In this document: piece after piece, positions 32,701-54,940 of the stretch
Position numbering within the stretch: the stretch's first letter is position 1
Layout of the letters: each line of letters starts with the position of its first letter
Origin: Stramenopiles sp. TOSAG23-6
Taxonomy: Eukaryota
Direction: 5' to 3'
DNA length: 54,940 nt
Assembly (NCBI GenBank): GCA_900128565.1
Contig: LT635920.1
Coordinates: forward strand, 1 to 54,940
Notes under the pieces: generated by a model
The model's database searches: none
What the model was told of the DNA's origin: nothing
The model's input: the letters and a program-made list of their open reading frames with translations, nothing else
Made by a program: the position numbers and the translations under genes

Positions 32701-35700
32701 CAAAAGTTTTTGTGGCGCTTTGGAGTCAAAGATATTTTCGTGCACGAAGGGAGCGTCATTTGTTTTATTTGAAACTTCGAGCTGTGCGTGAGCTTCGTGA
32801 GGAAATAAGTCAACGACAAAATACTCGCAAATTACGTACAGCTGCATCAATACGTCTTCAAGCACAATGTAGAAGATTTCTTGTAGTTTTGAATGCAATG
32901 CATGAATGTGAGCGACATAAAGCTGCAGTGTATATTCAGTTTCGTTACCGAGGATTTAGTAGTCGTTTATCGTACATAGCAATGGCCAAGAAGAAGAATG
33001 CATCACTGAAGTTGCAGAAACAATTTAGAGGACGAAAGGTCCGAATTCAAATAGCCAAACAAAATGCAGCTGTCACTTGTATACAGTCGAAATTCCGTGG
33101 CCGTGTTGGTCGGAATGTTTTTNTCAATAAGAAAATGGAATTTGATAGATTAATATGGTCAATAAAACTTCTGCAAAGTTATTGTAGAATGTATCGTGCC
33201 AAAAAGCAAGCGCAAGTCGTTCGGGTGGCTCGCCAGAGATATTATGCAGAAGAGTGTGCTCGAGAGGAAGCAGCTGCAGAATATGAACGGGAATTGAGGT
33301 TTGTGATAAAAATTCAGGGACTGTGGAGAACTAAAAAGGCGAAGCGCAAGGTGGGCAATTTACGTGCAAAGATGTTAAAAGAATTAGCAGCAATAGATGA
33401 TGAGGAGGAACGCGAAAGAGTTCGTTTATATCGCATTACTGAAATTGCGGCTATAAAATTACAGATGCAATACAGACGTCATTCAGCAGTTCGAGCTCTT
33501 GCTCGCGCAAAACAGGAACGTATTCAAAAACTAAAGAGAGATCGCAAAGATGCAATTAGGCGTCGAAAGGACAACTGTGCGATAAAAATACAATGTCAAT
33601 TCAGAGTAAAAATTGCGTGTAGAAAAATGAATAAAGCTAAACAAATAAAGCAGGATATACTTGATGAAGAAGAGCGACAACGTATGGATAAAATTCTTAA
33701 GATTGAAGGAGTTCGGGACATGCAAATATTTGTCAAGTTCAATACAGCGGAGTCTCGGGTAAAAGAACTGGAAACTTTGTTGAAGAAACTTGAAGAACCT
33801 TATCAAGATTCATCACAAATTCCAAAGGTTCACATTGAGCTTGAAGAGGCTAAAGCAAATTTATCCAGACTCGCTTTGAAAAAGAATAACGTAGAAAAAC
33901 ACCAAGCTGCCGCATTACGTATTCAGAATAGACTTCGTATATGTTTAGGAAAAATGCGATTAGAAGCAGAACGTAATGGACAAATGTCAGAGTTATTCAA
34001 AATGAGAATGGCGGGTGCTTCGGTAGAGGAATTGCGCAATGTATCACTAGCACACTTAAAAGTTATGTCAGCGGTTCGTCTACAGGCAATCATGCGGGGC
34101 CATTGGGCAAAAAAAGAAATGTCAGAAAGGGTCCGAAGGCAACGAAATTGGATCAAAAAGAACACAACAGAAATTAATAAAACAGATATGATTACTCGTT
34201 TGCAGTGCTTTGTTAGACAAAGACAAGCAAAGCGAAGTTTACAAATCCACAAGGATAGATTGTTTTTCGCTCAACGCCGGGAACGCAAAAAACAAGAATT
34301 GGAGCTTTTGATCAATAAATCCTGGCGTTTGGAATGGGATGATAAATATCAGTGCGAAGTGTATGTGAATCATCATACAAAAGAGATATCGTATAAAAAA
34401 CCAGAGTACTGGGCTCTGTCCGAGCTTTGGGCAGCGAGTGAGTATGCTCTAGAGTTTGAGATACCTCCAGAAGCTGATGCTATAGTCGATGAGTCAAAAC
34501 TGTGCGCGGAATGCGGAGACAACCCTGTGAGAGAATGTCATCAATGTATTAAGGAAAACAAAGATAAAACTACACACCCTTTACGTTTTTGTGAAAAATG
34601 TTGGGGGGAGAAGCACAAAATGGGTCGTTCAAAAAGTCACACGTATCGCAATCTAACACAAAACCTTTGTGTTGAATGTGAAGAGCCTGGGAAACGGTCT
34701 TGTCAGCAGTGTGGTGATATGTTTTGTGAGGAGTGTTACACTCTCAAGCATTCTCGCGGAGATGAAAGATCACATACATGGAAACCAGTAACTGCGTCTA
34801 CAAAATCGTCAAAACCTGGCGATGTAGAAAGACGACCATGTATACAGTGCAACGAATTTCCAGAATGCGACCGGGAAGCTGGGCGATATTGTATTCAATG
34901 TGCCGATGATTTCTGTGTTCTTTGTTACCAATCGGTCCATTCCAAAGGAAAGAAGAAAAGTCACACATGGCAGAGGGTTCGTAGTTTAGCAGACGAGAGA
35001 GCACATCAAAAATATATCTTAGAAAAACGTAAACGAGAGTTCGCAAAACGAAAGCAACGGAAAGGTAAAACAAAGGGTAAATATAAAATAGTTTGGAAAC
35101 CCATTTTTGATGAAGAATCAGAAACGTATTATTATTATCATTCTCTTAGTGGGGAATCATTGTGGGAAGATGAGTTTTACGATTTTCGGCATAAATTAGG
35201 CAGTTTCAAGAATGGTTTGTTAGATAAAGATGGTGACATTATTGTTTGGGAACCTGGTACAGCAATTTTGCGGAAGCCAGACGAAAAAGTAATAAATGAA
35301 GCTTCTACTAATGAGGATAAATCAGATGACTCGACCGTGAAACAAATAGTTACTCCTTTTGATTTTGCAACTTTTGCAAAAACAAAGCAAAATTGGAAGC
35401 GAGATATTTATCAAGCTGAAAAAAACACTCAAGGCGAAGAAGAAAAGAAATCTGCGATAGAAAAAATGATTGCGGAAAATATTAGAGTTGCCAAAGAAGC
35501 AAAGGAAGCACAAGAAAAAATCCTAGAATTAAAGAACAAAAAATTAGTAAATAGAATAGGTCGACAATTCTTTGGTGGCATTGGAAAACGCGGCGTTCAG
35601 GCGTCTAGTAATGTAACAGAAGATTCCAAAGACTATGAAGTTGAAGACCACAAAGATAATACAGCAGAAGATTCAGAAAAAAAAATAGAAACAAGTAATA

Positions 35701-35813
35701 TTGCAGATGTTAGTAGTTCTCGTGCTTTATATCTAAAAATGATAAGTGCCTCTAGCACGGGTTTAAATAAGACAGGTAAAAAGACTACAACAAAGAATAA
35801 ATTTAGACACTAA
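29739..35813 (+). CDS. EF-hand + many IQ motifs + WW + B-box zinc fingers
   Basis: DTDGNGTIDSDEL and DADGNGKIDFEEF EF-hands; numerous IQxxxR motifs; two WW-like segments; three CxxC...CxxC...H B-box units. Confidence 0.85.
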   Translation: MNRKALHPSNDPHWKALIAKSRKAHEKEKQTSKQKQKLYPEKRPSTYNSRVYAQNQRKLYSRRKHKRPHTYYQGQREKTDKCRTPTVTKTTAQKETKRPYKKHINPYKEYNALESKDKSRLHRYHHEIKFSSSIQPNVNVVMNHECSLDRGSSLFTAHSSCNRKDTYSIREYLNTSTTRLHNPESKVLDHSSPKSQKQINKDTTGQILNDATAGILPVKYIEYLMSPHKRGLVGRESVKQSFEKCFVQTGTVPMPPHQTLPIEKQMTNMIKWKQLHDKNALSEIVQNDREDIAKSIGLSMDDLNRLDVEDSDDTDVNIDIYRRAFEKFDTDGNGTIDSDELSVLLEKLGETLDNKEVDKLINDADADGNGKIDFEEFVTAMNARKRILKFAAKISQQNQNESNFKKQMPMKVNSRKRKQTQLPHLNSGNRATSCHIINRRKSSPQARSNRAKSSRIANRRKWSPRDRSNRAKSNHISHRNRTSPRARSVRAKSNHIFNRNQNSPQAWSNRPKSSRVSHRNTLIDTSSIDALQSSTDLSSIRELCLNDETSQKSTARSNVSGDSWHYTTVQRPTPRQLXEIMFSKTANSKLGTSRTKTNICRQLIFSKEETDTEVQMLEDAIESHLAWTRRNIPVESIRAQLYCFKNGSDKLDALFARMSDTRINRAFQLWKGFVDHEKCQEKAQQYLRWKGSRKLIAMLNKSVLNTISPAWNTWSSKYKECVHNEREVACLLIQRISRGYFAKLFTENLRSMVLTTKCAIRIQNCWRQRISRAVLKHMYMNRMAVRVQICWRQKLARQVIYLMRLTQAVIRVQSFWRNKMARAVCAALWLIKEQNRAVTIIQNKWRCYKSTLFAGILRRNHAHLEAMVLRVQCAWRCKQGRFAYYLKKRANTIQKEEEEHAAIVLQNKMRCRQSYAKATFYRKKRDENNAVTTISRIWRGVYTRRIYKKMCEVRDMRYKFQTRRVQRYIRKTYLPRMRTWWADHEARSKVFVALWSQRYFRARRERHLFYLKLRAVRELREEISQRQNTRKLRTAASIRLQAQCRRFLVVLNAMHECERHKAAVYIQFRYRGFSSRLSYIAMAKKKNASLKLQKQFRGRKVRIQIAKQNAAVTCIQSKFRGRVGRNVFXNKKMEFDRLIWSIKLLQSYCRMYRAKKQAQVVRVARQRYYAEECAREEAAAEYERELRFVIKIQGLWRTKKAKRKVGNLRAKMLKELAAIDDEEERERVRLYRITEIAAIKLQMQYRRHSAVRALARAKQERIQKLKRDRKDAIRRRKDNCAIKIQCQFRVKIACRKMNKAKQIKQDILDEEERQRMDKILKIEGVRDMQIFVKFNTAESRVKELETLLKKLEEPYQDSSQIPKVHIELEEAKANLSRLALKKNNVEKHQAAALRIQNRLRICLGKMRLEAERNGQMSELFKMRMAGASVEELRNVSLAHLKVMSAVRLQAIMRGHWAKKEMSERVRRQRNWIKKNTTEINKTDMITRLQCFVRQRQAKRSLQIHKDRLFFAQRRERKKQELELLINKSWRLEWDDKYQCEVYVNHHTKEISYKKPEYWALSELWAASEYALEFEIPPEADAIVDESKLCAECGDNPVRECHQCIKENKDKTTHPLRFCEKCWGEKHKMGRSKSHTYRNLTQNLCVECEEPGKRSCQQCGDMFCEECYTLKHSRGDERSHTWKPVTASTKSSKPGDVERRPCIQCNEFPECDREAGRYCIQCADDFCVLCYQSVHSKGKKKSHTWQRVRSLADERAHQKYILEKRKREFAKRKQRKGKTKGKYKIVWKPIFDEESETYYYYHSLSGESLWEDEFYDFRHKLGSFKNGLLDKDGDIIVWEPGTAILRKPDEKVINEASTNEDKSDDSTVKQIVTPFDFATFAKTKQNWKRDIYQAEKNTQGEEEKKSAIEKMIAENIRVAKEAKEAQEKILELKNKKLVNRIGRQFFGGIGKRGVQASSNVTEDSKDYEVEDHKDNTAEDSEKKIETSNIADVSSSRALYLKMISASSTGLNKTGKKTTTKNKFRH

Positions 35814-36016
35814 TGTCCACAAAAACATTAAAAATGAAATAAATAATAATCACTGGTTATTTTCTTGACTCCCTTAATTCTTTGACATTAACAAATCACC
35901 CAATTTTTATCAACGTATAAAATAATGAGAGAAAGTTTGGTGTTAACATATACGCAAAATATACGGTATTTTTTAATTGTTTCTCATAAGCTATGATATT
36001 GGAAAAAATATTTTAT

Positions 36017-37552
36017 TTATCTAGAATTATATCGATTTATCAAACCTTTAGGGCTTGGGGTATGCCTGATGTTCGATGGACTTTTACCACCACTACTTCT
36101 TATACGAAGGTCTCTCATAGCTTGAGCGCGCAATCTATTTTTAATCTGTAATTGGATTGTTTGTTGTTGAGTTTTATTCCCTTCTTTCGCAAAGTCAGGT
36201 TTTACCAAGGAAATTATAAATTCACTATTTAGTAGTTGTTTAGCCGATGGTCTTTCTTCTGGATTTCTTCTAAAACAAGCTGAAAGAAATGTTTTCAGTT
36301 CATGTGGTGCTTTTTGTGGTATATCTTGAACAGGAGTTTCACCTGATTCAGCTAAGAAAAACATCAAAGCATGTACAGAAGGGAAATTTCGTTTTTTCCA
36401 AGGAGGGTTTCCAGTTAACATTTCCAGGACACTACAACCAAGACTCCAAATATCAGCAGCAAAACCGACATCGCCATGATTAGTCACACATTCAGGAGCC
36501 ATATAGTAAGGAGTTCCACGAATCATTGTCGCTGCTGCACCAAAAGCTAAGGGCGAATCAACATCTGATTGTTTTTGAAGATGTTCTTTCAGAGAGTCTC
36601 GTGATTGAGAAATATCACCATCTGTCTTTGTTGCTCTAACTTGTGCAGGATCTAATCGTTTCGATGCACCAAAATCAGCTAATTTTACAATACCTTGGTC
36701 ATCGACTAAAATATTCGCACATTTAATGTCACGATGAATGACATTATTAGCATGTAAGTAAGCTAAACCATCTAATAGTTGCTTAGTATAAACACGGATG
36801 ACATTTACATGCAGTTTTGTAAATTTCTCCAACATTGTTAGTAAAGATCCACCAGGGACCCATTCTGTAAGAATATATAATGTTTGATCTCGAACTTCAG
36901 CACCAGTGTAGGCGACAACATTTTTATGACGCAGGGATCTCATTAAATTTATTTCATTACGAAGCTCATGAAGTTTTTCAACATTTTTTCCAAATGTTAT
37001 TTCTTTAATAGCAAGCATACCACCGGTTTGGTTATCGAAGCCTACATAAACTTTGCCATATGACCCTTTTCCTATTTGTTCACCCTTCTTCCAGCGAAGT
37101 CCTGAAGGTTTTGAATTTGTACTAGATAATGGAGTTACACAGACTTGTGCGCTTTTTGGAGGTTGTGTTTTTGGCGGTACAGGGCGTCGAGGATTACTCA
37201 TTTTTGCTATGTTGCGTTTGTATGCTTTATCTACTATTTTATGTCGTTTCATTGAGGGAGATACACTTGGTGTTATCCGTCTCTCCCTCCCTCCACCAGA
37301 AGGCGGAGTTTTGGTGAAAGATATAATCTGACCAGTCTCTTTTAATTTTGAAACTGGATGATCCGAAGTTATACATTGCCGCATTTTCGTTGATTTAACC
37401 TCGAATGAATGCGATGCATCTAATGAAATGGTTGACGTAGTTTTCTTTTCTTCAATTGCTGCACGACGAAGAGCTTGGTCAAGATCTTCCGCGGAAGTCA
37501 TTCGGGGTTTTTCAGGAATAGTAAAATCTGCACGAGATACTTTGGCCCCCAT
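36017..37552 (-). CDS. STE11/MEKK-type MAP kinase kinase kinase
   Basis: WKKGEQIGKGSYG, HRDIKCAN, KLADFGASK, GTPYYMAPE; MGxxxS myristoylation-like start. Confidence 0.9.
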   Translation of the reverse strand: MGAKVSRADFTIPEKPRMTSAEDLDQALRRAAIEEKKTTSTISLDASHSFEVKSTKMRQCITSDHPVSKLKETGQIISFTKTPPSGGGRERRITPSVSPSMKRHKIVDKAYKRNIAKMSNPRRPVPPKTQPPKSAQVCVTPLSSTNSKPSGLRWKKGEQIGKGSYGKVYVGFDNQTGGMLAIKEITFGKNVEKLHELRNEINLMRSLRHKNVVAYTGAEVRDQTLYILTEWVPGGSLLTMLEKFTKLHVNVIRVYTKQLLDGLAYLHANNVIHRDIKCANILVDDQGIVKLADFGASKRLDPAQVRATKTDGDISQSRDSLKEHLQKQSDVDSPLAFGAAATMIRGTPYYMAPECVTNHGDVGFAADIWSLGCSVLEMLTGNPPWKKRNFPSVHALMFFLAESGETPVQDIPQKAPHELKTFLSACFRRNPEERPSAKQLLNSEFIISLVKPDFAKEGNKTQQQTIQLQIKNRLRAQAMRDLRIRSSGGKSPSNIRHTPSPKGLINRYNSR

Positions 37553-37840
37553 TTTAATGATATCGTTCCATACTAATTAAGGACATATCATATCAAATGT
37601 TTTATCAAGAACATCTTTGTTATATACTACAGTAGTTAAGTATGGAGGTAAAAAAGAAAAGTCCACGTAGAATGTGAAACCGTTTTTTTACTCAATTTGA
37701 CACGTGGCATTGAAAATACTACGAACGATTTGATTGAAAACAACACGTGGTCAGGCAGATTATATTCAGCACTGTGACTGATGGAAAAACAGTTGTTCCA
37801 ATAAAGAATACAAAAAGGAGTATCCATTGTTATATCAAAC

Positions 37841-38749
37841 ATGTCTACATTAATTCCACTTACCCTCGCTGCTGGTACGACAGCTACAATTATGTACCCC
37901 GTTGATGTTGTCCGTGCACTTCGAATGGCCAGTGCTGGAGGAACCGAAACGTTCTCTATTACCAAGTTTATAAAAACTCATGGCGTTAGAGGTTTGGCGT
38001 CTCAGGGCGCAGTTGCTGAGATCGTAAAGAGCAGTGTAATGCGTGTTAGCAAGTTTTTCTTTTTCCCTCTTACATGTAATGGTATGTTTGGAGCAAGCAG
38101 CAAAGAGCTTGCGCCTTGGCAAAAAGGTCTTGCTGGTTGTGCGGCTACCATACCTGAAATTTTTTTAATCACACCACTTGAAGGCGCAAAACTTGGACTA
38201 CAAACTGATTCTACGAAACGATACAGTAACAGCATGACTAATATTATGAAACATGTATACCAAACTCGCGGTTTGGGTGGTTTGTGGACTGGATGGGCAG
38301 GTTTACAATTGCGTAATGGATTATGGACTGGTACTTATTTTGCGACGTTGAGTTCATTTAAAGAAGTAATCGAACCTGGTGTTGTTGGTGTCGGTTTACC
38401 ACAGGGAGTGGCTCAGTTCACTGCTGGTTTCTGTGCTGGTACATTTGCTGCAGCATTTAATACACCAGCTGATGTCATACGTACAATTGTACAAAGAAGA
38501 ATGTTCAATGAAATCACTGCAAGTATGAAAGGTTCTTCTGAAGTAACTGTCACAAGAACTGGATTTTCTTTAGGTTTGGGGTTCCCTGAACATTTCAGAG
38601 TTTTTAAGGAAATCATTGGCAAATCGGGTATTAAAGGTGTTTATCCTGGATTTGGATTCAAGGCTATGCATCTTGGAGGTTCTGGGGCGTTAATGGCAAT
38701 GTTTATTCCTATATTTTCTCGTTTACTTGGTATTAAGTATGATATCTAA
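37841..38749 (+). CDS. Mitochondrial carrier family (SLC25) protein
   Basis: Three Px[DE]xx[KR] signatures: YPVDVVR, TPLEGAK, TPADVIR. Confidence 0.9.
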   Translation: MSTLIPLTLAAGTTATIMYPVDVVRALRMASAGGTETFSITKFIKTHGVRGLASQGAVAEIVKSSVMRVSKFFFFPLTCNGMFGASSKELAPWQKGLAGCAATIPEIFLITPLEGAKLGLQTDSTKRYSNSMTNIMKHVYQTRGLGGLWTGWAGLQLRNGLWTGTYFATLSSFKEVIEPGVVGVGLPQGVAQFTAGFCAGTFAAAFNTPADVIRTIVQRRMFNEITASMKGSSEVTVTRTGFSLGLGFPEHFRVFKEIIGKSGIKGVYPGFGFKAMHLGGSGALMAMFIPIFSRLLGIKYDI

Positions 38750-39166
38750 AGCCTCTCTCAGTATAAATATATATATTATGGATACGGGATAATGCCTTAT
38801 TATTGGGTGAAAATATGATGGAAATTATCTAGAGTATAAAATTCATTGGTAGTAATATGAGATGAAGTTAAAAACTCATGATTTGTCTGAAAAGTTTATA
38901 AATTTTATAAAGAATTCATTTTTTAAAATTTGAAATTGATATTTATGACGCAGGTATTATTTTATTACCATTATAATTATTATTTAGTATATAATAGGGA
39001 TAGCAGATCAAGATCGATCGGCGGTTGATTTTCTCAAATTTCAAATTTCAAAATTTCAAAATTTCGAATTTTCATTTCAAAAGCGCGCTGACGTACCGAA
39101 AGGAACACTAATTCCTTTAACAAACAACTAGAGTACTACTCCTCCTCTTGACGAAATCAAGGAAAT

Positions 39167-40716
39167 ATGCTCTCAACACGTTTGAATATTCGCCGCGTTG
39201 TTCTTCGGGGAATATCAAGTCGATCTGTATCAACTCAATCTGTACCAATAAAAAAAAGTACTGATAGTCACCGCGAGACATATCGTTATGAATTTTATAA
39301 CGGAGAAAAGGTCAAGTCAACCTTTTCGAACAAAGAGATGGACCGGAGAACAACCAACCTTCGAGAAACGATGTCGAAGATGAATTTAGAAACATGTTTG
39401 ATGACTTCAATGCATAATATTGCTTACTTTAGTGATTTTGTGTATTGTAGTTTTGGCCGGCATTATGGTCTTGTTGTTGGTCACGAAGGTCCTGTCAAAA
39501 CAATTAGCGCTGGAATCGATGCTGGCCAACCTTGGAGACGAACAGCAAACGGCGGAGAAAATGTGACTTATACGGATTGGCAGCGTGATAACTATTTCAA
39601 GGTAGCTGTTGAAGAGCTTATTAGATCTTCTTTGTCGAATCATGGGTGTTTTCGCGTTGGAGTTGAGTATGTATGTTTTATTTTTTTCAATTTCGAATTT
39701 ATTTTTTTATAGGAAATTTTGTACCTAACAAATTTTTTAAAGATTTCTTTTGAAATATTTTACCAAAATAAATGACCACTTGACTCTGGATATGTTTTCA
39801 AAATTAAGAAGTGCTCTACCTGACTCAGTTGAACTGGTTGATATAAGTAAAGATATTATGAAGAGTCGCATGGTAAAATCTGCTGAAGAAATCGAACTTA
39901 TTCGCTTAGGTGCTTGGGTTGCTGATCAGGGTGGAGAATCAGCAGTGAAGGCAATATCTGATGGTATTGGAGAATACGAAGTTGCATTAGCATCAACACA
40001 GAGAATGGTAACTGAAATTGCTAAGCATGCTCCTGGAAATGCTGAATTGATGGATACATGGACATGGTTTCAAAGTGGTATAAATACTGATGGTGCACAC
40101 AACCCCGTGACTACACGAAAACTGAACTGTGGAGATATTCTTTCTCTGAATTGTTTTCCGATGATTGGAGGATACTACACTGCTTTGGAGAGGACTTTAT
40201 TTCTAGGTGAACCTGATAAAGTATCATTAAAAATGTGGGAGGCTAATGTTGCTGTACATGAATTGGGTAATAAGTTAATCAAACCAGGAGTAAAATGTAG
40301 TGATATTGCAGAAGAACTTAATGTACGTTTTCAAAATTGAATTTCAAATTTATTTATTTTTTCGTACGAAATTTTGTACTTAACGATTTTTTTGACTAAA
40401 TTGTTTTTTCTTCACAATACATGAACTCTGTGAATCTTTGGATGTTTTACAATATCGTACTTTTGGTTATGGTCATAGTTTTGGCGTATTAAGTCATTAT
40501 TATGGTAGAGAAGCTGGTTTGGAATTACGTGAAGATGTCAATACTGTACTTGAACCTGGAATGGTCGTTTCAATGGAGCCAATGATTACAATTCCAGATG
40601 GTTTGCCTGGTGCTGGTGGATATAGAGAACATGATATTCATGTAATTACAAAAGATGGAGCTGTAAATATTACTGGTTTTCCCTACGGACCAGAACAAAA
40701 TATTATTCACGCATAA
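39167..40716 (+). CDS. Creatinase (creatine amidinohydrolase, M24 family), 448 aa, exons 39167-39670, 39774-40322, 40423-40716; mitochondrial-type presequence
   Basis: YCSFGR.YGLVV, ISAGIDAGQPWRR, DTWTWFQSGINTDGAHNPVT, RTFGYGHSFG.LSHYYGREAGLELRED, GAGGYREHD. Confidence 0.93.
39671..39773 (+). other. Family-1 intron, 103 nt, non-AG end (GTATG...AATAAAT; slides to AT-AA)
   Basis: Removal restores GVEY-DHL. Both internal AGs lead to an in-frame TGA. Confidence 0.85.
40323..40422 (+). other. Family-1 intron, 100 nt, non-AG end (GTACG...AATACAT; slides to AT-AC)
   Basis: Removal restores ELN-ELCESLDVLQYRTFG. No AG occurs anywhere in the interval. Confidence 0.9.
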
Positions 40717-40920
40717 GAATAATAATAACCTAAGAAGAATCTACCAATGATGAAAAACATTTCAAATAATTATACAGTAATAAATAATGGTTTATTAGGT
40801 GTACCGGGTACACGATTTGACCGATGTTTCAAAACATCACTGAATTTTCTTGATTTTTTTTATTATTTTAATTTTTTTATTATTTTTTTTCTCGAAGCAA
40901 CTTCTATAAAATTAGGGCAA

Positions 40921-42642
40921 ATGATATTCCGCTCAAATTTCTTGCCTAGGGCAAATACCGGATATATGTTCCGTCGAATGTGTACCACGACTTCAAAACG
41001 GAAAAAGACCTTTCATTTTTTTGCTGCTGGAGCTGCAGTTTCTGGTGGTTATTATTTTATTAGAGATTACTTTTCTCACCTATCCGCTAATAATGTACAT
41101 TTGTCGTCTTCTATTGATACAAGTGAAGCAATATTAGATGCATCTTCTTTTTCAGATGAATTAGTTTCGGTAACATTTGAAGCTGCAAAGGATCATGCGG
41201 TGTATATAGATGACGTAGAAAAAGAGTTTACTGATTCAGGAAAAGAAACATGCCAAGTAGTATTAGACAAAGTCGACCTTGTTCAACTTATATCTGAGCG
41301 TATTTTTTATTTATTACAATCAAAACAGCAATGTTACATTACTCCATAATACCACTATTTATTCATCATCATCAAAAATGGCGTATTGTTCACATTAAAT
41401 GGCATATCAAATTAGAAAATTTACGTATCCAATTGAAGTCTTTAGCAAAAGAATCAATTGAAAAAGGAACCTCATCTATTTTTGATACTGCTAGGTCTGA
41501 AAGAGTTCCGATATTCTCATCATGGTATTTCTCATATCCAACTACATATACCCTGATGTCGGAAGCTATATCAGCTGCATTTGCCCATCAAATTCCATGG
41601 CGTCGAAAGTCCGCCAATTGTACATTTTCATCATTCATTTCAAATTTATGTTTCATACCAAAGTTTGTACCTAACGAATATTTTGACTGAAAAAAAATAT
41701 TTTTTACAATATTCGGGATGCAACTACAAAATCAGCAGTATCTAGTCGAATTCAAGAGGTTATTCTTGCAAAATATGAAGCAATAGTGCTACGACCTGAG
41801 GTAAATGATACTAAATTTCAAACTGTTTTTTCTTCTTCAGCAAATGAATTACATGTAAACTTTTTGAGTGGTTTAGATACTGTTGAAGATGATTTTCGTT
41901 GTAAATTAAGTTCAAATAATACTTTTATAGATAGTTACTATAGTTCTTCTTCTTCAAAGGAAGATGATAACAATAGATCTAATAAACCCAATAAACCTAA
42001 TACACCTAATACACCTAATAAACCTAGTAAACGTCGAAGGAAAGGAAAACGGGGTAAAGTTCGATTGAAATTGGATTGGAGAGCTCAAATGAGAAAAATC
42101 CGTCATGTACCTCACACGATTGGACGACTTCCAGCAGAGGCATCTATTGGCTTAGCTTTTGGTGGCGCTGTCGCTGGTAAAGTTGCTGGAGGTGCTATTG
42201 CTAAGACTGCCACGACAACATTTTCTAGTAAATTGACAGCACCATTTGTAGGTAAGGCGATGAGTTCTGTTGCTGGTACATCAGGGGCAGCTGTAGGGGC
42301 TTTAGGTGGTATATTTTTTTTATAACATATATATGTATTTTTAAAGATTATTTGAGTTCACAGATAATTTGCTAAGTTTATAATTTTTATATATATATTG
42401 CAAATAATACATGTCCTGGTGGAGCAGTTGCAGGGGCAACACTTGGGATAGGTGTTGATGCTGTTTTGAATGTCATGCATAGAATGATTCATCAAGATGA
42501 CTTTGTTGCTGAGGTTAGAGATGTCCTTTGTGCCAGTGAAGAACATTTTAATAATTTACTAATATCAGAGTTAAATCGTGCTATTGACGTCTGGATTGAT
42601 ACTTCTATTGATGCCATATCACTTGTTGAAACTGAAAAATAA
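40921..42642 (+). CDS. Uncharacterised protein with presequence-like N-terminus, TM segment and C-terminal glycine zipper; three introns (~41300-41415, ~41620-41735, 42309-42412; boundaries uncertain)
   Basis: Four consecutive coding segments joinable in frame (RVPIFSSWYFSYPTTY; LRPE; GALGG-PGGAVAGATLGIGVDAVLN). Confidence 0.7.
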
Positions 42643-42698
42643 TGAAAAAAACCCGAATTATTTTTTTAATTTAGATTGTAATACAAAAAGAGGTTGAA

Positions 42699-44039
42699 TT
42701 ATTTTTTTAATTTAGATTGTAGTACAAAAAGAGGTTGGTTTTTCCAACTTTCGCCTTTCCATAAAACTTTCCCCAAAATTGAATTATTATTATTATTATT
42801 TGCTTTCCCTTCATTTATTGGTACATAATTTTCATCAACAGGATGTTGAGTTTGTATTGCATCTAATAATTTCCAACCACGACTTTCATGTGTTAATGCT
42901 TGAAATCGTTTCTTTCCATAAATTCGATGTCGATTACCTGAGATTAAACCGTTACCTTCACCTATAGGAATACCCAAGAAAAGTAAACCACCTGGCTTGA
43001 GTAACATTTTAAATTCATCCATCGCTGCAAAATCTCCACGTGGATCCAATGGTTCGCCATATCTACCTAATCCATCATGTTCAATAGATGAAAAGGAACA
43101 AATAATATCAAATTCACGAAATTTTGAAAATTTCCCGTTAAGTAAATCTTTAGCATGAACCGTTTGAATGAGTGGTGATTTAGAAATTAAATTTTGATAT
43201 TCACTTGTAACGACAATTGATGCTTTGTATGCAATGGCAATAACTTCAATCCATGGCATTTCAGAACCCACAACCAAAACTCGAAGGCCGTTGACTGGGT
43301 ACCTAGTAAATGCTTCATAGAAATCAGGGATTGCATTAGGATATGCTCGGTGGTTCAGATCAATACCTTCACGTGCCTGATTAAGGAAATTATTAACAAG
43401 ATCTATTTCCCACACAATGTCACCAGTACCACCGAAACGAGAATCTTCAAACTTATCTTCAAATTTTTCGCCAAATTCCGTAAATTCATCAAAGAATGGA
43501 AGTGTCTGCAAAGGTATTGGCCCAGTGGCCCGGTAATGTCTAGTCGTTTGTATACATTTACTTGTATTTATCATTTCATTTTGCAATTGTAAGTTTGATC
43601 CTTGAGATGAAATATTACGAATATGACGATCGACTGAGTTTTGTTTTTGGTGTTCAGTCAATGCACCATCCACCAAAGACTTCGCACAGTCTGTAGAACT
43701 ATCAATATGGTGGGCTCTACAGAATTCTTGAGCATAATTGTGGACATTATCAGAAGCTACACCATCAAAATCACGAACAGCAAAAATCATAGGAGAGCCA
43801 TCCACCATCACAGGCACCTCAACGTGAGTGTCAATTTTTTTTTTATGTTCTTCTTCAAGTTGAGAATGACTTTGAGTTCTCTCCAATAACATTTTATGAA
43901 GGGCTTGCACTAGATCTTGATCTCCTAATCCATACTCTTTTTCAACAAATTTTGCTAAATTATGAGACTTTATTGGAATATTCGACTGACAGAAGCCAAT
44001 GCAAAGTGATAAAAACAAAGCAACTGCTTGAAAGAACAT
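42699..44039 (-). CDS. Secreted DUF268-like SAM-dependent methyltransferase-fold protein
   Basis: Signal peptide; VLVVGS..PWIE, FSSIEHDGLGRYGEPLDP.GD, LLKPGGLLFLGIP, N.HRIYG..R. Confidence 0.85.
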   Translation of the reverse strand: MFFQAVALFLSLCIGFCQSNIPIKSHNLAKFVEKEYGLGDQDLVQALHKMLLERTQSHSQLEEEHKKKIDTHVEVPVMVDGSPMIFAVRDFDGVASDNVHNYAQEFCRAHHIDSSTDCAKSLVDGALTEHQKQNSVDRHIRNISSQGSNLQLQNEMINTSKCIQTTRHYRATGPIPLQTLPFFDEFTEFGEKFEDKFEDSRFGGTGDIVWEIDLVNNFLNQAREGIDLNHRAYPNAIPDFYEAFTRYPVNGLRVLVVGSEMPWIEVIAIAYKASIVVTSEYQNLISKSPLIQTVHAKDLLNGKFSKFREFDIICSFSSIEHDGLGRYGEPLDPRGDFAAMDEFKMLLKPGGLLFLGIPIGEGNGLISGNRHRIYGKKRFQALTHESRGWKLLDAIQTQHPVDENYVPINEGKANNNNNNSILGKVLWKGESWKNQPLFVLQSKLKK

Positions 44040-44274
44040 GCCAATAATATATAATAAAAGACAGAGAAACGTGCAATATTTTTTCTATTTTTTTTGAGAA
44101 AAAAAAAATAAAAACGTCAAAGTTTCGAAACAAAAATAATTCAAATCCAAAAACACGAAATATCGAAACAATAAAAATGTGACACTTCAAGTAATTTAAA
44201 TTATATATAGACAGTTATAAATATATGATATTTTTAAATGATATACTTGTATTTTATAATGATATATTATCCTA

Positions 44275-45610
44275 TTACAATTGCTGTTGTCGTTTTTGAT
44301 AAGAATAATAAGCAGGTCTAATAGGAGCTTGGATTACTTCAAGAGGAGCATATTCATTACAACTGTTTTTTTCCTGTCCTTGTTTAGATTTCGTGTCTTT
44401 TTTCATATTTTCCTGTGAAGAACAAATATCCATTGTTTCACGACATGTACGCATGAGTGTATCAGCAGCAACTGTTGCATTTTCTCCCATTTTCATACTC
44501 AAATCATAAGACATATGTATTTTGTAAAAATATTTCAAAAAAAAAATCTGAAAAAAATTGTTAGGTACAAAATTTACTATGAAAAAAAAAATATAGATAA
44601 AAAATTGAAAAAAAATAAAAAACATACATCCGCATCAAAACCAGATAAATCTCCACAAGCAACAAATGGGGTAATAATTCGTTGCATTGACGATTCTTTT
44701 TCTAAATTTTTATAACTATGATCTAAAAGAGGATTTAACATTGTTGGAATGTAACCAATCGGAGGATTATAGCGACGACATACAACAAAAGCTTCAATAG
44801 AAGAATTACGGCTACCTATTTTGTGAAAAAATATTTCAAAAAAAAAATCGTTTTTCTTTAAGTACAAAATTTCGTACGAAAAAAACTAAATTCGAAATTG
44901 GAAAAAAAATAAAACATACTTTTTGGTTTACAACAAATTACCTCTTCGAAATATACTTTAAGCTGAGAATATAAAAGACAAACATCTTTACCTCGAAATA
45001 TTTTTGCTACAAAAGTACCACCGGGTCGTAAAAGATTGGTAGTAATATTTAACGCAGCCAAAAGAAGTTGTGCCTGAACATATTCATCAAGGTCATGCAA
45101 ACCTGTCACATCAGGTGCTCCATCACATATCACAAGATCCGCTTTTTCCCCTTTAAATTGAGAAATTATATTTGTAGCAGTTTCATGAGATGTTATATCA
45201 CCTTGCATATGTACAACACCTTCTATTGGAGTCATTTCCTGTAAGTCTACAGCAACAATACGCGCAGCGCCATTTTTATCAAATTTTCGTGTATTTTTAC
45301 AAATTGGAGAAACACTATCCCCAGGAGTTTTACAAATTGGAGAAACACTATCCCCAGGAGACGTTTCACTAGGACTCTTTTTATCATTAGTTTTTTCTAT
45401 TGATTGTTGGAGTGTCTTTAGAATACGCCTACTACAAACTTGACTCCAACTACCGGGTGCTGCACATAAGTCAACTACTCGTTCCACACCCGTAAAAATA
45501 TCAAGTTGTTCATCAATTTGTAGTAGTTTAAAAGCTGATCTAGCTCGAAAACCAACCTCCTTGGCTTTGCGATAATATATGTCGCGTTTATCTTTGGACG
45601 TGCGACCCAT
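44275..45610 (-). CDS. FTSJ1: tRNA 2'-O-methyltransferase TRM7/FTSJ1; exons 45610-44920, 44815-44628, 44514-44275
   Basis: [71 protein letters not shown]. Confidence 0.95.
44515..44627 (-). other. Family-1 intron, 113 nt, GTATG...AATACAT (an in-frame upstream CAG alternative exists)
   Basis: Removal gives GFDAD-MSYDL. The CAG option inserts [11 protein letters not shown], which is the conserved tail of the repeat family. Confidence 0.7.
44816..44919 (-). other. Family-1 intron, 104 nt, canonical GT-AG
   Basis: GTATG...CACAAAATAG; removal restores KPKSSRNSS. Confidence 0.92.
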
Positions 45611-45949
45611 TTGTTATAATGAATGTTGTATTTCGTCAAATATTCCAAGACTTTACAATAAGACTTGTGACAATAGACAACTGTTTACACGGTTAAAATG
45701 GGTAGTACTGCCTTGGCCTGACAGAATAATTTTTTTCATGCGCTGACTAGGCGTTACCGGGTTTCCTCTCCTTCGAATAAAATTCACTCGAGCGTCGTCG
45801 TCCTTACCGATTTTTCGTATGCTNGGAGGAAAGCAAATTTGTAGTCACAATACTTTGTACCCATTTGATATTATTTCGCATCTATTGAATTATATCAAAA
45901 TGTCATTAGTATAGATAGATATATTGTTTATAAAGTATCGTATTGAATC

Positions 45950-48900: not shown

Positions 48901-49252
48901 TGTTGGTAATTCAAAGGAAGGTATGGATGATATTTTAAAAGCTATAACAGCTGGGTTTTTTTATCATACTGCAAAATTACAAAAATCGGGTTCATATAGG
49001 ACTGTCAAACATGGACATTCTGTGAATATACATCCATCATCTTCGTTTTTTAAACAAGAAACTTTACCTACATGGTTACTTTACCATGAACTCGTATTTA
49101 CTACAAAAGAATTTATGAGACAAGTTATTCAAATAAAATCTGATTGGCTAGTTGAACTTGCACCACATTATTACAAACCTAAAGATTTGGAAGATCCAGG
49201 CAAAAAGAAAATGCCTAAAAATAAAGGTCGTGTAGCTGAAGCATTTAAATAA
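45950..49252 (+). CDS. DHX16: Spliceosomal DEAH-box helicase Prp2/DHX16
   Basis: N-terminal PWI-like [58 protein letters not shown]. Confidence 0.93.
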
Positions 49253-52896: not shown

Positions 52897-54184
52897 ATGT
52901 CTGGAAATAAAACAAACTCTACAACAAAATCAACATCTTTTCGTCCTATAGCATCGAGTGTTTCTAAATCATCTCCAGAAAAATATTTTGCAGGATTTAG
53001 TGGTCAATGTCGTAATGTGAAAAATACTATTGTCACAACTCCATTTCTAACATCGACAGCATGTAAAAAAATAATAACAATGTGTGAAGAATTTGCAATT
53101 TCAAAAAGTGGTTGGTCTAGAGATCACTCTTCCATATATACACAATCTACTACTGATCTAGAAGTTGTATCAATTCCTTCACTTCGTAAATGGTTTTTAA
53201 AAACTGATTTTATGAATGAATTACAATCTTTTTATGACGAAGCATGTACGTTTTATTTTTTTTCAATTTGAATTTTTTTTTCGTACGAAATTTTGTACCT
53301 AACAAATTTTAGTTTTTTTTTTTGAATTATTTTCCAAAATACATATGGAGAACAAATTTATTTTATGGATGATTTTTTTGTAGTAAAATACTCAACAGAA
53401 ATTGGTGGACAGCGTTCCTTACCCATTCACAAAGACGCTGGAAATATTAGCTTTATGATAGCATTAAGTGATCGTTCCGAATATAGTGGAGGTACGTTAT
53501 TGTTTCAACCCTAACCCTAACCCTAATTTTTTCAACAATATTTTTTGTATCAAAGAGTTATTTCTAATTTCTAATTATTTTTCAACACATTTTTTTTTTC
53601 GTACAGGCGGTACATATTTTGAAAGTACAGATAAAATATTACATCTTGAGCAAGGAGAATTAGTATCTTTTGGAGCTAATTTGATGCATCGTGGGGAAAA
53701 TATTGAAAACGGTACCAGGTATCTTTTAGTAGGATTTTGTCATACAAAAAAAGATTATACACCAATGTCAGGAGATATAGATCCATCAAAATTACAAGTA
53801 GTTCCGGGAAATAGACTTTCTCTTCCTAGTTGTGCTTTTAAAGCATCTGAAGTGTTAGCAAAAGCAAATCAGAGTAAGAATAAAAATGTACACATTGAAC
53901 AAAATATCAAACATATAAATCCTATACTCGATCATGAAAATGAAACCGATGAAACATTTAGTTTTCATACACCAAATATGAAATGCTTCTTAGGTGAACA
54001 TCCAGGAGTATATAGCTCAAAATGTCTTAGCAATGTGTATAAAGAACAAAAACGATTACGAAAGCGACACCAAGCAATAATAAGTAATAAAAGGGCGCGT
54101 TTATCGCCTAGAATTGATGTCGACGAACGGTATCAAAAGAAGAAAAAAAGGAAAAAATCACACAAAAGACATTTTCAAAAATAA
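52897..54184 (+). CDS. 2OG-Fe(II) oxygenase (PLOD/prolyl-hydroxylase-like); exons 52897-53245, 53345-53491, 53607-54184
   Basis: Spliced product contains TTDLEV, DFFVVKY...QRSLPIHKD...F.IAL...YSGGGTYF, HRGE.I..GTRYLLVGF. The middle exon is missing from the ORF track. Confidence 0.85.
53246..53344 (+). other. Family-1 intron, 99 nt, non-AG end (GTACG...AAAATACAT)
   Basis: Contains an in-frame TGA. The internal AG (53312) is out of frame and the next AG (53350) would create TAA. Confidence 0.85.
53492..53606 (+). other. Canonical GT-AG intron containing (CCCTAA)3
   Basis: GTACG...GTACAG; removal restores YSGGGTYF. Confidence 0.88.
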
Positions 54185-54437
54185 ATTATATTTTTCTGTT
54201 CGTTTCTGTTTTTGTGTATTCACAAAGTTGTATTTATTTTTTTATACATGTGTATTCGCTGTGTTCTAGCACTAGTAGCTAGGGTTAGGGTTGATTGACT
54301 GGTCATATATATATATGGCCAAAAAACACGACGACGACGTCTCAAAAAAAATCTCAATCCTCGGGACACTCAAAAAATACTACTTTCATCCATACACTTT
54401 TTTTTGAAATAGAACAATAACTATAACACATTATAGA

Positions 54438-54887: not shown

Positions 54888-54940
54888 GTATGTTTTATTT
54901 TTTTTCAAATTCCAATTTTTTTTCGTACGAAATTTTGTAC
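54888..54940 (+). other. Family-1 intron, truncated by the window end
   Basis: GAT|GTATGTTTTATTTTTTTTCAA...TTTCGTACGAAATTTTGTAC. Confidence 0.85.

What the first reader, a model, noticed from the sequence alone, without database searches (positions are those of the whole stretch)
39671..40422. Two introns in creatinase that cannot end in AG: GT-AT (or AT-AC/AT-AA) splicing
Seen: both insertions carry stops and frameshifts, so they must be removed. Intron 2 (40323-40422) has no AG at all, and the next AG is out of phase inside GYGHSFG. The two AGs in intron 1 lead to a TGA. Junctions are TAT|GTATG...AATAAAT|GAC and AAT|GTACG...AATACAT|GAA, restoring GVEYDH and ELNE as I recall them from bacterial creatinases. 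Because AT is repeated at both ends, the GT-AT, TG-CA/AA and AT-AC/AA registers give the same mRNA. Known: U2 introns end in AG, and U12 AT-AC introns start ATATCC, which these do not. Inference: a spliceosome with relaxed or altered 3' splice-site chemistry, or another precise removal mechanism.
Basis: partly seen in the sequence, partly recalled or inferred. Interest (0 to 1): 0.92.

Follow-up and report, generated by a model that had tools for sequence, protein, structure and literature searches.

The report
Transposon-like introns ending in AT
Two short insertions in a marine protist's creatinase gene are copies of a repeated, transposon-like intron family that ends in AT instead of the near-universal AG and is still cut out exactly, so this organism's splicing tolerates an unusual intron end.

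Summary
The creatinase-like gene (39167-40716, +) is interrupted by 103 nt (39671-39773) and 100 nt (40323-40422). Each insertion shifts the frame and carries stops. Only removal at TAT|GTATG...AAAT|GAC and AAT|GTACG...ACAT|GAA restores residue-for-residue continuity with solved and metagenomic creatinases.

One polyA metatranscriptome contig (262 nt, no mismatch) joins 40320 to 40421, which is exact removal of intron 2. Intron 1 has no RNA support.

All 7 copies that can be assigned to a gene lie in sense. The family carries a strong GTAYGT 5' site, a CTAAC branch-like motif 40-46 nt from the 3' end, and a ...AAAATAC-AT or -AG terminus.

Four copies need an AT end. A sister copy (44816-44919) and an unrelated intron (53492-53606) are ordinary GT-AG. 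AT-ending copies are preceded by AT, a 2-nt direct repeat that is also part of a 6-nt inverted terminus.

Best reading: introner-type, transposon-derived spliceosomal introns whose 3' dinucleotide is AT. The GT-AT register is favoured but unproven. The host is a stramenopile with MAST-3-labelled nearest relatives. An existing gene model of this locus is mis-built.

The parts
39167..39670 (+). Creatinase-like gene, exon 1 (ATG 39167; N-terminal extension plus the Creatinase_N domain); ends ...RVGVEY
   Evidence: Pfam PF01321; 1chm_A residues 8-113; alignment A1
39671..39773 (+). Intron 1, family copy s2, 103 nt: GTATGT...TACCTAAC...AATAAAT; preceded by AT; phase 0
   Evidence: (E 2.6e-16). No RNA junction among the rows shown.
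39774..40322 (+). Exon 2 (DHLTLD...EELN), Peptidase_M24 domain
   Evidence: Pfam PF00557; 1chm_A 125-305, E 2.5e-67
40323..40422 (+). Intron 2, family copy s3, 100 nt: GTACGT...GTACTTAAC...AATACAT; contains no AG; preceded by AAT; phase 0
   Evidence: (E 6.4e-12). RNA contig X8 record 20 joins 40320 to 40421 with 56 and 206 nt on the two sides and 0 mismatches.
40423..40716 (+). Exon 3 (ELCESLDVLQYRTFGYGHSFG...IIHA, stop TAA 40714-16)
   Evidence: 1chm_A 311-400 from query residue 6; ORF end
44515..44627 (-). Family copy s5 in the Trm7/FTSJ1 gene, 113 nt: GAT|GTATGT...ATACAT|ATG. An AT end is needed to give GFDAD|MSYDL.
   Evidence: In alignment A2, 4 of the 7 homologues aligned continue D(S/A)D directly with x(S/T)YxL.
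44816..44919 (-). Family copy s6 in the same gene, 104 nt: AAA A|GTATGT...AAAATAG|GT AGC. This is an ordinary GT-AG intron.
   Evidence: Against 8y2o_B, exon 1 ends at residue 201, the split codon AGT gives S=202, and the next exon starts at 203.
53246..53344 (+). Family copy s7 in a 2OG-oxygenase-like gene, 99 nt: GCAT|GTACGT...ATACAT|ATGG; phase 1. It joins a 122-codon ORF to a 55-codon ORF.
54888..54940 (+). Family copy s8, 5' part only (cut by the window end): GAT|GTATGTTTT...
   Evidence: nhmmer E 4e-6; sequence
41620..41712 (+). Degenerate family copy s4 in the gene downstream of creatinase (GTACAT...TACCTAAC...ACAATAT). Its boundaries and reading frame are not resolved.
   Evidence: nhmmer E 8.5e-6; frame reasoning
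3568..3663 (-). Family copy s1, ending ...AAAATACAG, in a region with no long ORF. It is not shown to be an intron.
   Evidence: nhmmer E 2.5e-19
53492..53606 (+). Unrelated canonical intron, GTACGT...CGTACAG, phase 1. It shows the same 5' consensus with a normal AG end. It contains (CCCTAA)x3.
   Evidence: coordinates corrected by 2 and 1 nt from the output

Best explanation
WHAT IT IS. The two creatinase insertions are spliceosomal introns created by a short (~100 nt), non-autonomous, transposon-like 'introner' family. The host is an intron-poor marine stramenopile.

ANATOMY OF THE ELEMENT.
- It brings its own strong 5' splice site, GTAYGT.
- It has a TACYTAAC branch-like motif, followed by a T-rich stretch.
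- Its terminus is ...AAAATAC.
- The last two intron letters are AT. The same AT also stands just before the 5' GT.
- This AT is either a 2-nt target-site duplication or a fixed AT insertion site. Because AT is self-complementary, it also completes a 6-nt inverted terminus, ATGTAT...ATACAT.

WHAT SPLICING DOES. It removes the element plus one AT copy and so restores the original coding sequence exactly.

MOST LIKELY CHEMISTRY (inferred, not shown).
- The major spliceosome cleaves at |GTAYGT, as it does in the GT-AG sister copy and in an unrelated intron.
- It then ligates after ...ACAT|. This is a GT-AT intron whose 3' site is set by position or terminal sequence, ~40-46 nt from the branch motif, rather than by an AG.
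- AGs lying 9-13 nt after the branch motif are passed over.

SHOWN: family membership, the exact junctions required, RNA removal of intron 2, and coexistence with GT-AG introns.

INFERRED: the register, which spliceosome acts, and the transposon origin.
For: FAMILY.
- The motif TTTGTACYTAAC (<=1 mismatch) occurs 7 times against 1.32 expected; 0 of 100 shuffles reach 7.
- A profile built from six copies finds 8 places with E<=8.5e-6. Six match by construction. The two new ones are 54888-54940 and 41636-41684. The next hit has E 0.14.
- Pairwise identity among the six full copies is 72-83%.
- All 7 copies that can be assigned to a gene lie in that gene's sense strand.

EXACT JUNCTIONS.
- Creatinase.
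- Trm7 s6 (GT-AG).
- Trm7 s5 (AT).
- s7.
- Each proposed boundary joins the longest upstream ORF to the longest downstream ORF in one phase: 173/188, 194/97, 86/79, 231/78 and 122/55 codons.

RNA. Run X8 (polyA metatranscriptome), record 20, is 262 nt with 0 other letters. It covers 40265-40320 and then 40421-40626.

DNA.
- In run X3, depth at the copies is 406-10,003 against about 5-15 in flanking bins. The tool warns that this is not a copy number.
- X3 contigs run into both introns at these positions.
- Of the six X3 differences listed inside the exons, 4 are synonymous and 2 are not.
- Other copies' contigs lose similarity exactly before the A of the AT at 39669 (28 contigs) and at 40321 (30 contigs) (table 7).

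AT BEFORE THE 5' GT. AT precedes the 5' GT in 6 of 9 copies: s2, s3, s5, s7, s8 and L062, but not s6, s4 and s1 as I placed its boundary. The chance of >=6 of 9 is 7e-5 at an AT dinucleotide frequency of 0.103.

REGISTER. GTAYGT stands at the GT register in every full copy, in the GT-AG copy s6 and in the unrelated intron 53492-53606.

SPLICEOSOME. A full-length DHX16/Prp2 orthologue lies at 45947-49249; residues 6-1098 align to 5z56_x 4-1038.

PRECEDENT IN PRINT.
- Introners that carry one splice site and take the other from the target-site duplication or insertion site (PMC9860276, passages read).
- GT-AT is spliceable, though rare (PMC1557818, passages read).
Against: - RNA support is one contig of depth 3 from one run, and for intron 2 only. 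No junction for intron 1 appears among the rows shown (53 joint rows and 4977 pieces were not shown).
- For an element with a duplicated AT, the spliced mRNA is identical to an empty (never-inserted) allele. A metatranscriptome contig therefore cannot by itself distinguish splicing from expression of an intron-less strain.
- The register cannot be read from mRNA.
- One way of aligning the 3' ends (ATAG| of s6 against ATAC| of the others) would favour AT-AC instead.
- A G at intron start with a U at intron end is not the usual pairing of first and last intron bases (recalled from general knowledge).
- No snRNA was found in the window (0 Rfam matches), and no genome is held. U1/U6, U11/U12 and U2AF1 could not be examined.
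- The inverted terminus is only 6 nt, inside AT-rich sequence. Folds of six copies give z from -1.29 to +0.58.
- Copies s1 and s4 could not be fitted to a reading frame.
- Only 1 further copy was found outside the window: L062, as 1 of 6 loci. None was found in 61 IMG/VR loci. Family-wide statistics therefore rest on 9 copies.
Confidence: 0.72

Rival explanations
1. The same introner family and the same removal, but in the AT-AC register (AT-AA for intron 1). The intron would be ATGTAYG...ATAC, cut by the major spliceosome as a U2-type AT-AC intron or by a minor (U12-type) spliceosome.
For: - The mRNA is identical in this register.
- A first A with a last C is the classical compatible pair (recalled).
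- AT-AC, AT-AA and GT-AT ends are documented for U12-type introns (PMC1557818).
- TACTTAAC and TACCTAAC resemble the U12 branch consensus TCCTTAAC (consensus recalled).
- The ATAG| end of copy s6 can be aligned to ATAC|.
Against: - In this register the 5' site would be ATGTAY. That is unlike both the U12 ATATCC motif and the organism's own GTAYGT, while a perfect GTAYGT lies 2 nt downstream.
- The branch-like motif is 40-46 nt from the 3' end, far beyond the short spacing typical of U12 introns (recalled).
- Intron 1 would end in AA.
Confidence: 0.15
2. The insertions are plain transposon insertions that disrupt genes in the sequenced cell or strain. The RNA junction would then come from intron-less alleles elsewhere in the population, and the genes here would be pseudogenes or mis-spliced.
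For: - An empty site and a spliced mRNA are indistinguishable for this element.
- The RNA run (X8) and the DNA runs come from different samples.
- Introner presence/absence differences between isolates are described in print (PMC9860276).
Against: - Four AT-ending copies sit in three different conserved genes. All are in sense, and all exons are intact.
- An independent metagenome (X3) carries both creatinase introns at the same places, at single-copy depth, with 4 synonymous and 2 non-synonymous exon differences.
- A sister copy in the same Trm7 gene is a verified GT-AG intron.
Confidence: 0.05
3. Intron 1 is removed through a cryptic canonical pair, GT 39634 to AG 39742, as in the existing gene model P0241. 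On this view no non-AG splicing is needed for intron 1.
For: P0241 (297 aa, 100% identical over exon 2) reads ...IRSSL|FLLKYFTKINDHLTL. This corresponds to GT...AG at those positions.
Against: - It deletes SNHGCFRVGVEY, whose RVGVE(Y/F) is aligned in all 5 homologues of A1, and it inserts 10 residues translated from the repeat.
- Its 5' site GTCGAA does not fit GTAYGT.
- The same model then reads into intron 2 and stops (...ELNVRFQN). This contradicts the RNA contig and loses the C-terminal 97 residues that align to 1chm_A.
Confidence: 0.04
4. Removal is not spliceosomal. Either the paired intron ends guide an endonuclease and ligase, as proposed for euglenid non-conventional introns and Amoebophrya introners, or the DNA itself is eliminated.
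For: - Short direct repeats overlap the boundaries and the termini are complementary, as in Amoebophrya introner elements (PMC7789003).
- In 3 of 6 minimum-energy folds the ends pair.
Against: - No fold is more stable than shuffles; z runs from -1.29 to +0.58.
- The complementarity is 6 nt.
- The copies carry a textbook 5' site and a branch-like motif, and some are ordinary GT-AG introns.
- Metagenomic DNA keeps the introns at single-copy depth.
Confidence: 0.04

Closest known systems
Introner elements: transposon-derived intron families in Micromonas, Aureococcus, Chrysochromulina, Symbiodinium and others (PMC9860276; PMC12130899)
   Same: - Many similar ~100-nt copies at unrelated intron positions.
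- Sense orientation in genes.
- A short repeat at the boundaries.
- The element carries one splice site and takes the other from the duplicated or target sequence.
- Removal restores the mRNA exactly.
- The 'ATgt...at' pattern here is the analogue of the 'AGgy...ag' pattern, which that paper calls ambiguous between a target-site duplication and an insertion site.
   Different: - The duplicated or terminal dinucleotide is AT, so the intron ends in AT and not AG.
- The later survey listed AG and AC as expected 3' ends and discarded families with mainly non-canonical sites that lacked transcript support (PMC12130899 methods passage). A family like this one might have been filtered out.
Non-canonical introner elements of Amoebophrya (PMC7789003)
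   Same: - Marine protist host.
- Repeated introns without GT-AG.
- Direct repeats (3-5 nt there) overlapping the exon/intron borders.
- Inverted repeats at the intron ends.
   Different: - Here only the 3' dinucleotide deviates. The 5' site (GTAYGT) and the branch-like motif are strong and uniform.
- The inverted terminus is 6 nt (8-20 nt there), and no stable hairpin is predicted.
- The host is a stramenopile.
AG/AT and AG/AC introns of the tunicate Fritillaria borealis (PMC13326754)
   Same: - Introns ending in ...YAT, with a matching YAY triplet just upstream of the 5' site.
- Here the last three letters are CAT (3 copies) or AAT (1 copy). The triplet before the 5' site is TAT, AAT, GAT or CAT.
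   Different: - The 5' end here is a canonical GT with a strong consensus.
- Canonical introns coexist in the same genes.
- Nothing is known here about U2AF paralogues or snRNA modification.
Rare GT-AT, AT-AA and AT-AC introns of animals and plants (PMC1557818)
   Same: - The terminal dinucleotide pairs themselves are documented as spliceable.
- Most are U12-type, but one conserved U2-type GT-AT intron (DGCR2) is reported.
   Different: - Those are isolated introns: 7 GT-AT among 66 non-canonical U12-type introns in that table.
- Here 4 of the 6 introns resolved in one 55-kb window end in AT, and they belong to one mobile family without a U12-type 5' site.

Membership tests
Introner (transposon-derived intron family) | Many similar copies at unrelated genomic positions | tested here: met
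   8 places in the window with E<=8.5e-6; 72-83% pairwise identity; 1 further copy in L062; very high summed depth at the copies in metagenome X3.
Introner (transposon-derived intron family) | Copies occupy intron positions and are absent from the mRNA | tested here: met
   RNA contig for 40323-40422. Protein-homology junctions for 39671-39773, 44515-44627 and 44816-44919. ORF continuity for 53246-53344. Two copies (s1, s4) are unresolved.
Introner (transposon-derived intron family) | Transposon signatures: target-site duplication and/or terminal inverted repeats | tested here: inconclusive
   AT stands before the 5' GT and as the last 2 nt in all 4 AT-type copies. The termini ATGTAT/ATACAT are complementary. 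However, AT is the same in every copy, so a target-site duplication, a fixed insertion site and an inverted terminus cannot be told apart. No autonomous element or transposase was seen.
Introner (transposon-derived intron family) | Recent gain: orthologues or other strains lack the intron at that position | not testable with these tools
   No genomic orthologue locus was available. The metagenome scan found only L062.
U2-type GT-AG intron | GT at the 5' end with the lineage's consensus | tested here: met
   GTATGT or GTACGT in all six full copies and in the unrelated intron.
U2-type GT-AG intron | AG at the 3' end | tested here: not met
   The ends are AAAT, ACAT, ACAT and ACAT in s2, s3, s5 and s7. 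s3 holds no AG at all.
U12-type (minor) intron | 5' site (A/G)TATCCTT (consensus recalled) | tested here: not met
   The 5' site reads GTAYGTTTT in the GT register and ATGTAYGT in the AT register.
U12-type (minor) intron | Branch motif TCCTTAAC close to the 3' end (spacing recalled as roughly 10-20 nt) | tested here: not met
   A similar motif, TAC(C/T)TAAC, is present but lies 40-46 nt from the end.
U12-type (minor) intron | Presence of U11, U12, U4atac and U6atac in the genome | not testable with these tools
   No genome is held. There are 0 Rfam matches in the window.
Structure-guided non-conventional introns (euglenid or Amoebophrya type) | Stable pairing of the intron ends that juxtaposes the splice sites | tested here: not met
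   z-scores run from -1.29 to +0.58 for six copies. The ends pair in 3 of 6 minimum-energy folds, over about 5-10 bp.
Creatinase (creatine amidinohydrolase, M24 family) | Creatinase_N plus Peptidase_M24 domains, colinear with solved creatinases | tested here: met
   Pfam; 1chm_A residues 8-113, 125-305 and 311-400. Enzyme activity was not tested.

The most novel reading that the evidence does not exclude
In this MAST-3-related stramenopile lineage, a mobile element has seeded hundreds or more introns that end in AT. GT-AT would then be a major, perhaps the commonest, intron class of the genome. The major spliceosome would choose their 3' site without an AG, by the element's terminal sequence or by pairing of the self-complementary AU-containing ends with the 5' exon/intron junction. 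That would be a natural system in which 3' splice-site chemistry (U instead of G as the last intron base) is relaxed genome-wide while the 5' site stays canonical.
Probability: 0.4. Interest if true: 0.85.

Novelty: new variant of a known kind. Interest (0 to 1): 0.72.

Why it matters
- AG at the 3' end of spliceosomal introns is one of the most constant signals in eukaryotes. Known wholesale departures are few: Fritillaria, Amoebophrya and the euglenozoans.
- This case changes only the last base, in an otherwise textbook intron, and has AG-ending sister copies in the same gene. It is therefore a clean natural comparison for asking how the second catalytic step picks its site.
- It ties a non-canonical terminus directly to the way an introner inserts, because the duplicated or target dinucleotide becomes the splice site. 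That mechanism could make non-AG introns arise in bulk.
- Gene finders that insist on AG mis-build genes in these abundant, uncultured ocean flagellates. The existing model of this creatinase is truncated and carries translated repeat.

Tried and rejected
- Whole genome: none is held, so no genome-wide census, snRNA search or U2AF search was possible.
- Collection scans for more copies:
  - A 16-mer in IMG/VR gave 61 loci, and 0 of 61 matched the family profile.
  - A 21-mer in metagenome contigs gave 1 locus, L062. It holds the 5' two-thirds of a copy joined to unrelated sequence.
  - Two patterns in GTDB genomes gave 0 loci and 5 loci. None of the 5 matched the profile.
- RNA runs X6 and X10 gave only exon pieces, short repeat pieces, or a piece from another organism. 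There is no junction for intron 1 among the rows shown.
- Rfam on the whole window gave 0 matches.
- Folding gave no stable structure.
- Sequencing error at the acceptors is rejected. Four copies share the T, and X3 lists no difference at 39772-3.
- Alternative AG acceptors:
  - s2 and s7 run into stops (read).
  - s3 has none.
  - s5 has an in-frame CAG that would add about 12 residues. None of the 7 homologues aligned has such an insertion after the D(S/A)D motif; 4 of them continue directly with x(S/T)YxL.
- A ciliate-type eliminated sequence is rejected. The standard stop TAA ends the gene where homologues end, and DNA in a metagenome keeps the introns.
- Copies s1 and s4 could not be fitted to any reading frame.
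- Literature: searches, and passages in PMC5778133 and the preprint 10.64898/2026.04.17.719054, gave no mention of non-canonical introns or introners in MAST-3. Supplements were not seen. Huff et al. 2016 is not held.
Full report
OBSERVATION

The window is eukaryotic and gene-dense with few introns. It holds MCM7, a formin, a CEP104-like protein, a mitochondrial carrier, a Prp2/DHX16 helicase and other genes, mostly as single long ORFs.

A creatinase-like gene starts at ATG 39167 and ends at TAA 40714-16. It lies in three open pieces with Creatinase_N and Peptidase_M24 domains. The pieces are separated by 103 nt (39671-39773) and 100 nt (40323-40422).

Both insertions shift the frame by +1 and carry in-frame stops: TAG at 39710-12 and TGA at 40338-40.

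Against the solved creatinase 1chm_A:
- exon 2 covers residues 125-305;
- exon 3 starts at residue 306 by gap-free extrapolation from 6->311.

In alignment A1, exon 1 ends RVGVEY and exon 2 begins DH, exactly where five homologues have RVG(V/L/I)E(F/Y)|DH. ELN|EL sits at ELN|KI.

Intron 2 contains no AG. Intron 1 has two AGs, at positions 41 and 71, and both lead into TGA. Because ATG is repeated at both borders, the GT-AT, TG-CA and AT-AC (AT-AA for intron 1) registers give the same mRNA.

RNA AND DNA FROM PUBLIC RUNS

Twenty-one runs were listed, all marine apart from the two coded organisms A and B; 20 of them hold the stretch or part of it. I laid one DNA run (X3) and three polyA metatranscriptomes on 33200-45800.

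RNA result. In X8, a 262-nt contig without a mismatch covers 40265-40320 and continues at 40421-40626. This is exact removal of intron 2, with 56 and 206 letters on the two sides. It is the only junction evidence. Nothing among the rows shown bridges intron 1, and many rows were not shown.

DNA result (X3).
- Flanking sequence has depth of about 5-15. Bins holding the insertions reach 406-10,003, so the insertions are a very abundant repeat in that sample. The tool warns that this is not a copy number.
- Unique X3 contigs run into both introns: 38117-39697, and, from the from_end figures, 39712-40350.
- No difference is listed at 39772-3.
- Of the six exon differences listed between X3 and the window, four are synonymous.
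- Contigs from other copies lose similarity just before the A of the AT that precedes the 5' GT: 28 contigs at 39669 and 30 at 40321.

WHAT THE INSERTIONS ARE

They are two members of one repeat family.
- A shared 12-mer occurs 7 times in the window against 1.3 expected.
- A profile of six copies finds 8 places with E<=8.5e-6: 3568-3663(-), 39671-39773, 40323-40422, about 41620-41712 (degenerate), 44515-44627(-), 44816-44919(-), 53246-53344, and 54888-54940 (cut by the window end).
- Full copies are 96-113 nt long and 72-83% identical.
- The common plan is (AT)GTAYGTTTTATTTTTTTTC...TTTCGTACGAAATTTTGTACYTAAC...T-rich...GAAATATTTTTCCAAAATAC, followed by AT or AG.
- All seven copies that can be assigned to a gene are in the sense strand.

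Junctions of the other copies:
- In the Trm7/FTSJ1 gene, copy 44816-44919 is an ordinary GT-AG intron. Exon 1 ends at residue 201 of 8y2o_B, the split codon A|GT gives residue 202, and the next exon starts at 203.
- Copy 44515-44627 in the same gene must end in ACAT to give GFDAD|MSYDL. This matches DSD|RTYPL, DAD|TSYAL, DAD|TSYPL and DSD|ATYEL in homologues. An in-frame internal CAG would add about 12 residues that no homologue has.
- Copy 53246-53344 must end in ACAT to join a 122-codon ORF to a 55-codon ORF.
- An unrelated intron, 53492-53606, is GTACGT...CGTACAG.

Of six introns with both ends resolved, four end in AT and two in AG. All six start with GTAYGT.

HOW IT MOST LIKELY WORKS

Several features are those of introners, the transposon-derived introns described in many aquatic protists:
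- many similar copies;
- sense-only orientation in genes;
- exact restoration of the coding sequence;
- a short repeat at the borders.

In those families the element often carries one splice site and takes the other from the duplicated target. Where every copy shows the same dinucleotide (AGgy...ag), a duplication cannot be told from a fixed insertion site (PMC9860276). Here the pattern is ATgtayg...acAT.
- AT precedes the 5' GT in 6 of 9 copies (chance 7e-5), and in all four AT-ending copies.
- AT is self-complementary, so the same letters complete a 6-nt inverted terminus, ATGTAT/ATACAT.
- One AT must be host sequence, because it lies inside conserved codons (TAT for Y, AAT for N).

The simplest account is that the element (GTAYG...ATAC) inserts at, or duplicates, an AT. 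The transcript is then spliced so that the element and one AT are lost.

WHICH REGISTER

mRNA cannot tell. I favour GT-AT for three reasons:
- a perfect copy of the organism's own 5' consensus (GTAYGT) stands at that register in every copy;
- the same position is the proven 5' site in the GT-AG sister copy;
- the AT-AC register would put cleavage 2 nt upstream, at ATGTAY, which resembles no known 5' site.

Against GT-AT:
- a U as the last intron base is unusual;
- one way of aligning the 3' ends (ATAG| of the AG copy against ATAC|) fits AT-AC.

The branch-like motif TACYTAAC lies 40-46 nt from the 3' end in AT-type copies and 43 nt in the AG copy. AGs 9-13 nt behind it are not used in three AT-type copies. 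The 3' site therefore seems to be set by distance or terminal sequence and not by the first AG. This last step is inference.

U12-type splicing is unlikely because both the 5' site and the branch spacing fail. Structure-guided excision is unlikely because folds are no better than shuffles. A full-length Prp2/DHX16 orthologue in the window shows that ordinary spliceosome parts exist.

THE MAIN CAVEAT

For such an element, the spliced mRNA equals the empty site. One metatranscriptome contig from another sample therefore cannot exclude an intron-less strain.

Against that reading:
- four AT-ending copies lie in three conserved genes with intact exons;
- an independent metagenome holds both creatinase introns at single-copy depth with mainly synonymous exon changes;
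- one gene mixes an AG copy and an AT copy.

ORGANISM AND PRIOR ANNOTATION

The MCM7 ORF has its nearest named relatives (79-81% identity) in two EukProt-sourced records, one of which (P0126) carries a MAST-3-type label. Brown algae and oomycetes follow at about 55%. The host is therefore a stramenopile close to MAST-3.

A record with the same kind of label, P0241, is 100% identical over exon 2 and appears to be an existing gene model of this locus. That model:
- forces GT 39634...AG 39742, losing SNHGCFRVGVEY and gaining ten residues translated from the repeat;
- then reads into intron 2 to a stop.

The AT-ending introns were thus not recognised in that model.

COMPARISON WITH WHAT IS KNOWN

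The kind is known, since these are introner families. Three sets of precedents exist for the unusual termini:
- Amoebophrya introners with border repeats and inverted ends (PMC7789003);
- Fritillaria AG/AT introns with a YAY triplet at both borders (PMC13326754);
- rare GT-AT, AT-AA and AT-AC introns in animals and plants (PMC1557818).

What is new is the combination:
- a canonical, strong 5' site and branch-like motif;
- an AT 3' end as the majority state of a mobile family;
- AG-ending siblings in the same genes;
- a stramenopile host.

My searches and the passages I read in two MAST single-cell genome papers mention nothing of the kind. Supplements were closed, and Huff et al. 2016 is not held.

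VERDICT

- This is a new variant of a known kind.
- The decisive data still missing are junction and lariat reads from raw RNA of this organism, and a genome-wide census of the family.

Noticed in passing
39634-40340 (protein record P0241): An existing gene model of this locus is mis-built. It uses a cryptic GT...AG pair that deletes conserved residues and translates part of the repeat, and it ends inside intron 2. Other genes of this lineage that hold the repeat are probably mis-annotated in the same way.
   Followed up: partly
53509-53526 and 54279-54290: Telomere-type repeats: (CCCTAA)x3 inside the canonical intron 53492-53606, and TAGGGTTAGGG-like sequence in the spacer before the next gene. 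There are 4 matches in the window against 0.09 expected.
   Followed up: no
45947-49249 (+): An intronless, full-length orthologue of the spliceosomal helicase DHX16/Prp2. It aligns over residues 6-1098 to 5z56_x.
   Followed up: partly
1-2600: A GC-rich stretch (47% against about 35% elsewhere) with strong GC skew (0.46). Long ORFs are open on both strands, and they encode short Thr/Asn/Cys/Pro-rich repeats.
   Followed up: no
4000-10000: A very AT-rich stretch (23-28% GC). It holds at least four minus-strand ORFs that share a peptide motif of the type YSC(R/K)IILTYCIHY (6618-6950, 7167-7409, 7629-7955, 8497-8868). This looks like a second repeat family.
   Followed up: no
39030-39075: Just upstream of the creatinase start there is a run of TTTCAAA(A)T-type units, including AAATTTCGAATTTTCATTTC. 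It resembles the CAATTTCGAATTT part of the intron family. Run X3 shows small indels here.
   Followed up: no
Family copies, e.g. 40369-40380 and 53279-53290: A perfect 12-nt palindrome, TTTCGTACGAAA, sits just before the branch-like motif in 4 of the 6 full copies, and also in the cut copy at the window end and in L062. It is mutated in the other two copies with no compensating change.
   Followed up: no
41620-41712 and 3568-3663: Two family copies do not fit a simple intron model. One is a degenerate copy in an unannotated gene, and neither a GT...AT nor a GT...TA boundary there gives a clean long ORF. The other is an AG-ending copy in a region without long ORFs.
   Followed up: partly
L062:89-173: The only copy found outside the window lies in a 1076-nt metagenome contig. 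Partway through the element the contig continues into unrelated sequence and ends in adapter-like letters, so it is probably a chimeric assembly.
   Followed up: partly
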